From the NCBI RefSeq assembly GCF_009914755.1, contig NC_060925.1: a stretch of 64,000 nucleotides of DNA, one strand, 5' to 3'. Source of the stretch: the human T2T-CHM13v2.0 reference genome, Homo sapiens. Shown here in pieces: positions 36,083 to 40,000 of this stretch. The position numbers were made by a program, and so were the translations under genes. Position 1 is the first letter of the stretch. Each line of letters begins with the position of its first letter. Below the pieces are notes generated by a model that made no database searches, had not been told where the DNA came from, and worked only from the letters and a program-made list of their open reading frames with translations.

Positions 36083-37030
36083 CTCTCATAGGCTGTCTGT
36101 GCCATCCTTCAAGAGGTCTGTGATACTGGGCAGGTCAGAGAATTGCTCTGTGCACGCATTTTCTCGTCCGAAAAAGGAAATTGCCTCTGAAGCCACTTGA
36201 TGGTATGAGTTTTACAGGGATTTAAATTGACGTTACTGGTGCTTTTTTTTTTTTTTTAAATGGAATCTTACTCCATCTCCCAGGCTGGAGTGCTATCTCC
36301 CAGGCTGGAGTGCAGTGGCACGATCTTGGCTCACTGCAACCTCTGCCTCCAGGGTTGAAGCGATTCTCCTGCTTCAGCCTCCCAAGTAGCTGGGATTACG
36401 GGAGCCCGTCACCATGCCTGGCCAATTGTATTTTCAGTAGAGACGGGGTTTCACCTTGTTGGTAAGGCTGGTCTCTAACTCTTGACCTCAGGTGATCCGG
36501 CCACCTCCGCCTCCCAAAATGCTGGGATTACAGGCGTGAGCCACCGCGCCGGGCCCCAGTAGTGCTGTTCTAATTTAAAACAAACAAACAGCTAACACAG
36601 TTCAGACAGTTACACATGCAGAATAAAAAGTGTGTACAGGCCGGGCGCAGTCCATCCTGGCTAACACGGTGAAACCCTGTCTCTACTAAAAATACAAAAA
36701 ATGAGCCGGGCGTGGTGACGCGTGCTTGTAATCCCAGCTACTCGGGAGGCTGAGGGAGGAGAATCACTTGAACCTGGGAGGCGGAGGTTGCAGTGAGCGG
36801 AGATCGCACCACTGCACTCCAGCCTGTGCGACAGAGTGAAATTCCGTCTCAAAAAAAAAAAAAAAAAAAAGGACCACTAACGTCAATTTAAATCCCTGTA
36901 AAACTCATACCATCAAGTGGCTTCAGAGGCAATTTCCTTTTTTGGATGAGAAAATGCGTGCACAGAGCAATTCTCTGACCTGCCCAATATCACGCAGCTC
37001 GTGAAGGATGCCGCAGACAGCCTATGAGAG
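36083..37030. repeat. Long inverted repeat: 160-bp unique arms (36083-36242 and 36871-37030) enclosing an inverted Alu pair
   Basis: Manual alignment gives 149/160 identical positions with no indels. Confidence 0.95.
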
Positions 37031-40000
37031 CAAGATTCCGTCTCAAACAACAACAAAAATCTTGGTATAATATTTGGCTAGGCCGGGCGCAGTGGCTCAT
37101 GCCTGTAATCCTAGCACTTTGGGAGGCCGAGGCGGGCGGATTATGAGGTCAGGAGATCGAGACCATCCTGGCTAACATGGTGAAACCCCGTCTCTACCAA
37201 AAATACAAAAAATTAGCCGGCGTTGTGGCGGGCGCCTGTAGTACCCGCTACTCGGGAGGCTGAGGCAGGAGAATGGAGTGAACCCGGGAGGCGGAGGTTG
37301 CAGTGAGTGGAGATCGCACCACTGCACTCCAGCCTGGGCGACAGATCAAGACTCCGTCTCAAAAATAAATAAATAAATAAAAATAAATAAAAAACATTTC
37401 GCTAATCTATCCTTATAAACCTTTTTAAAAAAACACTTGCTTTATAACATATAAAATCAGTATATGGGCCAGGCCCGGTGGCTCATGCTTGTAATCCCAG
37501 CACTTTGGGAGGCTAAGGCTGGAGGATTACTTGAGGTCAGGAGTTTGAAACCAGCCTGGCCAACGTGGCGAAACCCTGTCTATACTAAAAATACAAAAAT
37601 CATCCCGGTGTGGTGGTGCACACTTGTAGTCCCAGCTACTGGGGAGGCTGAGGTAGGAGAATCACCTGAGTCTGGGAAGGTCAAGGCTGCAGTGAGCCAT
37701 GATTGTGCCACTGCACTCCAGCCTGGGTGACAGAGTAAGACCTTGTCTCAAAAAGTAAAATCAGTATATGTAGCATGTTTGTGTTCCTAAATATACACGT
37801 CTACACAATTTTAAAAAAAATGAAATAATACCAAACCATCTTCATGGTTCCCCAACCCCTCTCAAGTTGTGATTCCGTAAGTTTACTGGTTTGCTAAAGG
37901 ACCCAGCACTTCTGTGACAACCTCAAATGGCCATTCTGGGATCCTCTTCTGGGATCCTGAGGTGAGGGGTGCCCCAAGGACCTGGGTCTCAGACATCAAT
38001 CGCAACTTGGCAGAAGCCCATCCTTCTCATCTTACTCTTTAGCATTGGAACTCAAACCTTTCTAGGTTTCTGCTTTCTTGAAGCCACTCAGTCGACAAGT
38101 TAGGCACTCAGTTTTTAGATGGGTGTTATTCCAGATCAAGGCATTTTGATGCGGACCTACAGGATGTGTCCTGGATATGTGGTTGAAGAGTAAGCTGACC
38201 AGGATTGCATAAGGAGGACAGTGTGGAGGAGAGCACAGGAGCCACAGCAGGTATCAAAAAGCTCCTGCCTTAGAGGGAAACATTTGTCAGATGGTGATGA
38301 GTGCTATAAAGAAACATGGGTATGAGGCTGGAGGGAAGAGCCAGCTAACAGAAGTCCAGAGAGGTGAGAGATGAAGGCAAGTTGGGTAAGGCTTTGAGAA
38401 GAAAGCACCCACTTTTAAGAAAAGTTAATTTCTTTCTCCCTCACCATGCCTCGTCTATCTCTCTTTACTTAGCTTCAATTCCATGGTTCACCATAATCCC
38501 CCTTCCTAATTAGTATTCACCATCAACTCCCTGGCCCCTTTCTCTTGCTTCATCAAATTTAATTGACAACCACAACCCTATTTACATCCAACTCTCCACC
38601 TACCTGCACCTGTACAGTTTAGAGTGGCTGGAGAAAAATCATTCAACCGGTGTCTCATTTTTAATTCACAAGCATCAGCCTCAGGAGGAAAATCAGCTTT
38701 TCTCTCATTGATTCCTTCTACTCTCTCTCTTTTTTTTTTTTGAGACGGAGTCTCGCTCTGTCGCCAAGTCTGGAGTGCAGTGGCACAATCTCGGCTCACT
38801 GCAAGCTCCGCCTCCCAGGTTCACGCCATTCTTCTGCCTCAGCCTCCCGAGTAGCTGGGACTACAGGTGCCCGCCACTACGCCCGGCTAATTTTTTGTAT
38901 TTTTAGTAGAGACGGGGTTTCACTGTGTTAGCCAGGATGGTCTCGATCTCCTGATCTCGTGATCCGCCTGCCTTGGTCTCCCAAAGTGCTGGGATTACAG
39001 GCGTGAGCCACTGTGCCTGGCCAGATTCCTTCTACTCTCAAGAGAACCATTTCATACCTTCTCCCTTTCCTCAGGTCTCCAACACCTCCTCTCCCATCTT
39101 TACTTCCAGTTCAACTAGACAGGAAAATTGAAGCAATCAGAACAAAACGTCACAGACTCCATTACATCTACCCCCGTCACAGATGCTGCCTTCCCACCTG
39201 TTACAGATCAGTATCTCATGAAGCCTGGTCTTGGCCAGCAGCGTCAGCACCATTGGAGAACTTGTCAGAAATGCAAGTTATTGGGCCCCAACTCCTGAAT
39301 CAGAAATCTTGCATCTGTGTTTTAACAAGTTCTCTCTAGAGTTTGAGAACCAATGTCTTTGGACTACACATGGTTCTGTCTAGAACAAATCCCTCCATTT
39401 GTGCATCAAATCTCAGTCTCTCAGCAACTCAAGAAGATGGCTTGGTCGGGTTTGGTGGCTCACAGCTGTAATCCCAGCATTTTGGGAGGCCAGGTGGGAA
39501 GATCACTTGAGCCTAGGAGCTCGAGACCAGACTGGACAACATAGTGAGATCTCATCTCTACATAAAATAAAAAACCAGGTGTGGTGGTACTGTAGTCCCA
39601 GCTACTCCAGAAGCTGAGGCAGAAGGATTGCTTTAGCCCAGGAGGTCAAGGCTACAGTGAGCCATGTTCATGCCACTGCACTCCAGCCTGGGAGACAGAG
39701 TAAGACACTGTCTCAAATAAACAAACAAACAAACAAAAAAAGCAGAAAAGATGGCTTCATCAAATCTCTTTTTCTCCCACATTATAATTTTACCTCTAAT
39801 GGATCATTTCCATTAACATACAAACATGCTGTTGTTTCTCCTATTTCTTTTTTTTCTTTCTATGCTTTTTTTTTCTTTTTTTCTTTCTTCTTTTTGTTTT
39901 TGAGACAGAGTCTTGCTCTGTCACTCAGGTTGGAGTACAGTGGCGCAATCATGACTTACAGCAGCTTCCACTTCCCAGACTCAGGCGATCTTCACACCTC

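What the first reader, a model, noticed from the sequence alone, without database searches (positions are those of the whole stretch)
36083..37060. About 950-bp quasi-palindrome created by a templated inverted copy of unique flank around an inverted Alu pair
Seen: unique sequence 36083-36242 reappears reverse-complemented at 36871-37030 (149/160 identical, no indels). The arms continue inward into an antisense Alu (36243-36555) and a sense Alu (36639-36870) separated by only about 83 bp. After the copy, an Alu 3' end resumes (gagcaagattccgtctcaaacaacaac). All three Alu ends share the non-consensus ATTCC. The sense Alu has lost about 75 nt near its 5' end, and the antisense Alu has a ~20-nt duplication near its tail. 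Inference: a fold-back/template-switch event in which the Alu pair formed a hairpin, synthesis ran on through the opposite flank, then switched back by GAGAG/GAGC microhomology. Close inverted Alus are normally depleted from the genome, so its persistence is notable. If transcribed from the CpG island 0.5 kb upstream it gives a ~400-bp dsRNA stem with a non-Alu portion (ADAR, Dicer or MDA5 substrate).
Basis: partly seen in the sequence, partly recalled or inferred. Interest (0 to 1): 0.75.

Follow-up and report, generated by a model that had tools for sequence, protein, structure and literature searches.

The report
Fold-back copy beside inverted Alu pair
A 160-base stretch of single-copy human DNA is repeated backwards about 630 bases away, next to two head-to-head Alu repeats, likely because copying DNA once folded back on the Alus and then resumed; this is a known kind of copying accident and likely has no function, though the differences between the two copies are oddly rich in C-to-G swaps.

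Summary
36083-36242 recurs inverted at 36871-37030 (149/160, no indels), and the search of the window's genome found only these two places. The copy sits in a 194-nt insertion flanked by a duplicated Alu 3' end (18 of 21).

The two Alus belong to different subfamilies, so the Alu itself was not duplicated. Best reading: one old template switch, tail to tail, in which synthesis left the sense Alu's A-tail, copied the antisense Alu's tail and flank, and returned about 20 nt upstream through AGAG. This is the known '4 before 1' class (PMC7954356). Small inverted duplications are common (277 in 1,019 people; PMC12350158).

Inverted Alu pairs at this spacing are not depleted here (23 inverted, 21 direct). 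An ordinary neighbouring pair has a longer unbroken RNA helix (117 against 109). No transcript is annotated.

One oddity remains: 5 of 6 non-CpG arm differences are C<->G, against 7% expected (post hoc P about 1e-5). That suggests break repair or arm-to-arm conversion. Primate orthologues were not available. Interest is low to moderate.

The parts
36083..36242 (+). U: native single-copy flank, inferred donor of the copy
   Evidence: Continuous with single-copy left flank; 2 matches genome-wide
36243..36555 (-). Alu A1 (AluSx/Sq-like left monomer, label recalled), T15 tail at 36243-36257
36274..36313 (-). 20-nt tandem duplication inside A1 near its tail (19 of 20 identical)
   Evidence: (family D14)
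36556..36638 (.). 83-nt spacer; begins with a weak candidate for A1's target-site duplication; holds AATAAA on + at 36622
   Evidence: TSD score reached by 16 of 234 unrelated tails
36639..36870 (+). Alu A2 (AluSc/Y-like left monomer, label recalled), 71-nt deletion after its first 10-13 bases, A20 tail at 36851-36870
36833..36853 (+). First copy of the direct repeat (Alu 3' end plus first tail bases); switch point 1 inferred in the tail behind it
   Evidence: 18 of 21 identical to 37027-37047; spacing 194 (family D7)
36871..37030 (-). U': inverted copy of U, 149/160 identical
37027..37059 (+). Second copy of the direct repeat and an aged (AAC)n tail: the resumed Alu end; 37027-37030 (AGAG) belongs to both U' and the repeat
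   Evidence: 1 of 4 orphan Alu ends in 264 kb
37081..37390 (+). Alu A3, an independent neighbour with its own target-site duplication; not part of the event
   Evidence: TSD 8 of 9, reached by 1 of 234 unrelated tails
35150..35560 (.). CpG island upstream, overlapping a RefSeq enhancer (35153-35447); context only
   Evidence: GC 0.64, CpG o/e 0.71; enhancer from the hub's annotation

Best explanation
This is a 194-base insertion holding an inverted copy of the neighbouring single-copy flank, likely made by one old template switch seeded by the head-to-head Alu pair, and likely neutral. Shown: arms, two different Alus, duplicated Alu end, AGAG overlap. Inferred steps: (1) A1 and A2 inserted separately, 83 nt apart. 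(2) At a stalled fork or resected break, the strand ending in A2's A-tail paired with A1's T-tail, held in register by the 82% Alu stem (fold-back within a strand, or a switch to the sister strand; the sequence cannot tell which). (3) Synthesis copied the rest of the tail and 160 nt of flank. (4) The new end, stopping in a (GA)n run, re-annealed by AGAG about 20 nt upstream of where it left, so A2's 3' end was made twice (four-point order 3-2-4-1). (5) The arms then diverged, with C<->G changes probably from error-prone repair. A2's 71-nt deletion at the hairpin centre may have stabilised it; its order is unknown. Age roughly 5-30 million years (rests on recalled Alu ages and rates).
For: Copy starts exactly where A2's tail ends and donor starts exactly where A1's tail ends. 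A1 and A2 differ at 20 of 173 non-CpG columns and carry different subfamily marks, against 6 of 146 non-CpG sites between the arms. The two A2 ends differ at 3 of 17 (two are opposite decays of one CpG); A1's end differs from them at 5 and 4. Orphan Alu ends are rare, 4 in 264 kb, and the other three follow Alu-like sequence. The Alu-only segment 36243-36870 folds as DNA at -197 kcal/mol (no shuffle control). '4 before 1' events with a direct repeat and poly(dA:dT) enrichment near switch point 1 are described in great apes (PMC7954356). Diverged inverted Alus fold back in single-stranded DNA in yeast (PMC10164571). Fold-back insertions of 10 to over 150 bp form at yeast breaks (PMC11724301). 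Internal Alu deletions of 40 nt or more occur in 5 of 378 Alus, A2 included.
Against: No pre-event allele or primate orthologue was seen, so every step is inferred from one sequence. A2's own target-site duplication was not found behind the resumed tail (score reached by 184 of 234 unrelated tails). A1's is weak (16 of 234; 8 of 9 only if either arm's base is allowed). A1's ATTCC needs a coincidence of about 5% or a conversion. The 5 C<->G differences and the single non-CpG transition are not explained by a clean one-off copy. Neutrality is inferred from missing annotation, not tested.
Confidence: 0.72

Rival explanations
1. Same template switch, but the first switch lay inside the Alu end: the left end is a copy of A1's end and the resumed end is A2's own (order 3-2-1-4, no re-copying).
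For: A1 and the left end share T at the first CpG and a pure A tail. Order 3-2-1-4 is among the majority patterns (PMC7954356).
Against: A1 and the left end differ at 5 of 17, mostly outside CpG, against 3 of 17 between the two A2 ends and 6 of 146 non-CpG sites in the arms. It still needs ATTCC twice.
Confidence: 0.1
2. RNA-templated insertion in cis: a + strand transcript carrying U and A1's U-tract was reverse-transcribed from a nick at A2's end, and the 21-nt direct repeat is a target-site duplication.
For: Direct repeat of about the length of L1 target-site duplications (the usual range is recalled); a CpG island lies upstream on the right strand.
Against: The A-tail is at the 5' end of the insert and the repeat ends in A's: the reverse of L1 target-primed geometry. 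No transcript is annotated. The exact hairpin register needs no RNA.
Confidence: 0.05
3. The hairpin is a recurrent repair and conversion site: the arms keep being copied onto each other, which erases ordinary transitions and leaves C<->G repair scars, so the event is older than it looks.
For: 5 of 6 non-CpG differences are C<->G against 7.3% expected; 1 non-CpG transition against 6.8 expected if as old as A2 (P 0.009), while 5 of 7 CpGs differ; a 65-nt perfect run (P 0.03) and 7 differences in 27 nt (P 0.011). C>G is tied to break repair and to regions of non-crossover conversion (PMC6511033, passages).
Against: All tests are post hoc on 11 differences. A single mutagenic repair event of intermediate age gives the same counts. 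A1 and A2 show no C<->G excess (3 of 21, P 0.28), nor do 74 Alus in close inverted pairs (85 of 891 against 351 of 4064, P 0.40).
Confidence: 0.1
4. Alu retrotransposition that carried the flank along (3' transduction), or whole inverted duplication of A1 plus flank.
For: Read in Alu sense both halves are Alu, A-tail, same flank. A1 and A2 share two non-majority bases in the right monomer, and only 1 of 73 window Alus is as close to A1 there.
Against: Left monomers carry different subfamily marks; 8 of 73 other Alus share two such bases with A1; 13 of 73 are as close to A2. A T5/T6 run 67 nt into the flank would stop RNA polymerase III (the rule is recalled). The duplicated end is unexplained.
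Confidence: 0.02
5. Dispersed repeat inserted twice, or assembly artefact.
For: The genome search skips very common words; one weak 40-nt hit at 80% lies at 42989-43027.
Against: Only 2 candidates genome-wide. 11 differences, with CpGs lost from each arm, are not what a mis-assembly gives.
Confidence: 0.01

Closest known systems
Short-range template-switch mutation, four-point model, '4 before 1' type (PMC5453318 passages; PMC7954356 section 8 and passages)
   Same: Reverse-complement copy of nearby sequence; inverted repeat plus a short direct repeat; appears as one insertion; poly(dA:dT) at the first switch.
   Different: Copied fragment about 175-180 nt against median 12 and maximum 128 in the 1,503 gold-standard ape events; first jump about 600 nt, bridged by two Alus. 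Human events reach 318 bp (PMC9435742).
Small polymorphic inverted duplications (PMC12350158, passages)
   Same: Local inverted copy of similar size (277 events, median 284 bp); 1-15 bp microhomology at junctions; replicative origin proposed.
   Different: Those segregate today, and only 8.8% show homology at breakpoints; this one is diverged, probably fixed, and has a long Alu homology at one junction.
Fold-back templated inversions at yeast double-strand breaks (PMC11724301, abstract and section 15)
   Same: Hairpin priming, short synthesis, capture of the other end through 0-5 bp microhomology; 10 to over 150 bp.
   Different: Yeast, induced break, 10-bp inverted seed; no duplicated end described in the section read.
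Inverted-Alu fold-back rearrangements (PMC10164571 passages; PMC3907307 search listing only)
   Same: Diverged inverted Alus anneal in single-stranded DNA and prime synthesis.
   Different: There synthesis runs on to a dicentric or a large inverted duplication; here it stopped after 160 nt and returned.
Template-switch-born miRNA hairpins (PMC10710096, passages)
   Same: A switch creates a hairpin at once.
   Different: Those have 30-55-nt stems in transcribed genes; here the loop side is about 600 nt of Alu and no Rfam family reaches its cut-off.

Membership tests
Short-range template switch (four-point model) | Inserted fragment is the reverse complement of nearby sequence | tested here: met
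   149/160, donor 628 nt from the copy
Short-range template switch (four-point model) | Linear sequence resumes after the fragment; for '4 before 1' a direct repeat flanks it | tested here: met
   36833-36853 and 37027-37047, 18 of 21
Short-range template switch (four-point model) | Ancestral allele without the fragment in a related genome | not testable with these tools
   The genome has no relatives here
Short-range template switch (four-point model) | Homology or microhomology at both switches | tested here: met
   A-tail/T-tail within an 82% Alu stem at the first; AGAG at the second. Four bases alone are weak.
L1-type retrotransposed insertion or transduction | Poly(A) at the insert's 3' end | tested here: not met
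   A20 lies at the 5' end on +; on - the insert ends in T
L1-type retrotransposed insertion or transduction | Target-site duplication | tested here: inconclusive
   A 21-nt direct repeat exists but ends, rather than begins, with A's
Inverted duplication of a whole Alu plus flank | The two Alus as alike as the flanks and of one subfamily | tested here: not met
   20 of 173 against 6 of 146; different left-monomer marks
Dispersed repeat | Further copies in the genome | tested here: not met
   2 candidates, both local; the search skips very common words
Known structured RNA / miRNA precursor | Rfam match at the gathering score | tested here: not met
   18 matches in 35000-38000, all below cut-off and all on Alus; none on the arms
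Endogenous dsRNA substrate (ADAR, Dicer, MDA5) | Both arms in one transcript, with edits or small RNAs | not testable with these tools
   Predicted fold is strong on both strands (z -43 and -39), which follows from any inverted repeat; no expression data

The most novel reading that the evidence does not exclude
Inverted Alu pairs spawn flank-extended hairpins that stay active in the germline: repeated arm-to-arm repair wipes out ordinary transitions and stamps in C<->G changes, so such arms carry a readable record of hairpin repair over millions of years. Because the arms are single-copy DNA, this locus would be a mappable natural reporter of it.
Probability: 0.1. Interest if true: 0.6.

Novelty: new member of a known kind. 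Interest (0 to 1): 0.27.

Why it matters
As it stands, it is a clear and fairly long example of a known mutation class, one that shows an inverted-Alu fold-back stopping early and returning. Alu-masked screens tend to drop such cases (PMC9435742 removed loci overlapping repeats). If the C<->G excess proves general for such arms, it would link hairpin formation at inverted Alus to the germline break-repair signature, and the link could be tested with pangenome and ape assemblies. If transcribed, the single-copy arms would let reads and A-to-I edits be mapped unambiguously; nothing here shows transcription.

Tried and rejected
Dispersed repeat: no third copy.

Known RNA family: none at cut-off.

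A2 as a copy of A1: rejected on subfamily marks and divergence.

Target-site test: clear for A3, weak for A1, absent for A2, so it gives only slight support for which arm is native.

Unusual persistence: 40 inverted adjacent pairs at 150 nt or less among 139 such pairs in 264 kb.

Exceptional dsRNA: longest Watson-Crick run 65 against a maximum of 62 among the other inverted alignments (875 in all, the finding included), but with G-U pairs 109 against a maximum of 117.

General C<->G excess in close inverted Alus: not seen.

Locus in print: 11 papers hold both YTHDF2 and OPRD1, none about this structure by title or abstract start (listing only). Three coordinate prefixes, from a recalled GRCh38 offset, were absent from 6 supplementary files of PMC7954356. 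Supplements of PMC12350158, PMC9435742 and PMC10710096 were not searched and could list the locus. Searches showed no title on a C<->G excess between inverted-repeat arms, but none was aimed squarely at that.

One print line (A1 21-mer, 9 and 8 matches) was out of register and was not used.

The base-rate control covers only 264 kb of one Alu-rich region of chr1.

Full report
Observation. The window holds, in order: single-copy U (36083-36242), antisense Alu A1 (36243-36555), an 83-nt spacer, sense Alu A2 (36639-36870), U' (36871-37030) and an Alu 3' end with an (AAC)n tail (37028-37059). U' is the reverse complement of U at 149 of 160 positions without indels. The paired region runs on into the Alus for 396 columns at 82% overall. 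A search of the window's genome with U gave 2 candidates, both local, and the left flank gave only itself. That search skips very common words. After Alu masking, this is the only inverted repeat of 30 nt or more within 3 kb in 264 kb: the window plus 20 stretches of 10 kb just upstream. So 0 of the other 39 close inverted Alu pairs show such an extension. That control is small and from one region.

What was copied. A1 and A2 are separate insertions. Their left monomers carry different subfamily marks (names recalled: AluSx/Sq-like and AluSc/Y-like). They differ at 20 of 173 non-CpG columns, whereas the arms differ at 6 of 146 non-CpG sites. Against this, the two share two non-majority bases in the right monomer, and only 1 of 73 window Alus is as close to A1 there. 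But 8 of 73 share two such bases with A1, and 13 of 73 are as close to A2. The insertion is 194 nt long, bounded by a direct repeat of A2's 3' end (36833-36853 and 37027-37047, 18 of 21). Over 17 nt the two A2 ends differ at 3 sites, two being opposite decays of one CpG. A1's end differs from them at 5 and 4. ATTC is in 16 of 303 other Alu ends, so the two A2 ends are probably one end made twice, and A1's ATTCC is a coincidence or a conversion. Orphan Alu ends number 4 in 264 kb, and the other three follow Alu-like sequence. U is therefore taken as native and U' as the copy. The target-site test adds little: A3's duplication is clear (1 of 234 unrelated tails score as well), A1's is weak (16 of 234), A2's is not found (184 of 234).

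Mechanism (inferred). The strand ending in A2's A-tail paired with A1's T-tail, held in register by the Alu stem. It copied the tail and 160 nt of flank, stopped in the (GA)n run, and re-annealed through AGAG about 20 nt upstream of its exit. In the four-point model this is order 3-2-4-1. The first paper on that model saw no '4 before 1' events among 794 (PMC5453318, passages). The later one found many, showed one with a direct repeat, and found poly(dA:dT) enriched near switch point 1 (PMC7954356, passages and section 8). Its gold-standard fragments have median 12 and maximum 128 nt, so this one, about 175-180 nt, is long. Human events reach 318 bp (PMC9435742, passages), and 277 inverted duplications of median 284 bp segregate in 1,019 people, mostly with 1-15 bp microhomology (PMC12350158, passages). 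In yeast, inverted Alus down to 75% identity fold back in single-stranded DNA (PMC10164571, passages), and fold-back insertions of 10 to over 150 bp form at breaks (PMC11724301, abstract and section 15). Retrotransposition is unlikely: the A-tail is at the wrong end, and a T-run 67 nt into the flank would stop polymerase III (rule recalled). A2's 71-nt deletion lies at the hairpin centre and is of a rare kind (5 of 378 Alus). It may have stabilised the hairpin; its order is unknown.

Age. The arms differ by 6.9% (95% interval 3.5-12.0%), with CpGs lost from each arm, so this is neither an assembly error nor likely a recent polymorphism. The clocks disagree: 5 of 7 CpGs differ between the arms, and A2 has lost 6 of 17, yet there is 1 non-CpG transition against 6.8 expected if the event were as old as A2. 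With recalled Alu ages and rates, 5-30 million years is as tight as this allows.

The oddity. Five of the 6 non-CpG differences are C<->G. The expected share, from 4,955 non-CpG changes in 376 other Alus, is 7.3% (P about 1e-5; 4e-5 if the one transversion at a CpG is counted; post hoc). Seven of the 11 differences fall within 27 nt (P 0.011), and one run of 65 nt is perfect (P 0.03). The changes go both ways (3 and 2) and cannot be polarised. A1 and A2 show no such excess (3 of 21), nor do 74 Alus in close inverted pairs (P 0.40). Germline C>G is tied to double-strand-break repair, to new copy-number breakpoints and to regions of non-crossover conversion (PMC6511033, passages). Tumour breakpoints are enriched for a transversion class whose symbol is missing from the held text; the context points to C/G (PMC3561864, passages). 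Either one mutagenic repair event or repeated arm-to-arm conversion would fit.

Persistence is not remarkable. In 264 kb, adjacent Alu pairs at 51-150 nt are 23 inverted and 21 direct; at 50 nt or less they are 17 and 78. Genome-wide the ratio at 51-205 bp is 0.898 (PMC3215922, passages). As RNA, both strands fold into one long hairpin, and the CpG island is real. But no gene is annotated here, and AATAAA lies at 35890 and in the loop at 36622. The longest unbroken helix on +, 109 pairs with G-U, is far above the median of 29 yet is exceeded by an ordinary pair nearby with 117. No Rfam family reaches its cut-off. No listed paper describes the locus (other supplements not searched).

Verdict. 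Real, well defined, and a new member of a known kind: an old Alu-seeded template switch, likely neutral. Confidence is about 0.72 for the stated order and about 0.9 for a local templated copy of any order. The C<->G spectrum is the one result left unexplained and is what would justify an alignment to primate genomes. Interest 0.27.

Noticed in passing
window 35528-35545: Perfect 18-bp palindrome in the CpG island, made of two back-to-back 5' splice-site consensus matches (+ at 35541, - at 35532). It is one of 3 perfect palindromes of 16 nt or more in the window; the other two are A/T-rich. About 0.2 of this length are expected by chance in 64 kb.
   Followed up: partly
window 35150-35560: CpG island (GC 0.64, o/e 0.71) with a 5' splice-site match on each strand and no annotated gene; could be the first exon of an unannotated transcript.
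   Followed up: partly
window 37081-37372 and 38730-39022: Ordinary inverted Alu pair, 89% alike, with a 117-pair unbroken helix (G-U allowed) on the + strand, the longest of 875 inverted alignments examined.
   Followed up: no
window about 22370-22420: Alu 3' end repeated in tandem with a short spacer.
   Followed up: no
window 36997-37013 region of U': Two of the clustered arm differences complete a 5-bp hairpin in U' (about 36991-37005) that is imperfect in U, as in quasi-palindrome correction; a 5-bp stem is within chance.
   Followed up: no
L003-L022 and window: At 50 nt spacing or less, head-to-head inverted pairs (12) outnumber tail-to-tail (5), in line with the published head-to-head excess at 24-50 bp.
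   Followed up: no
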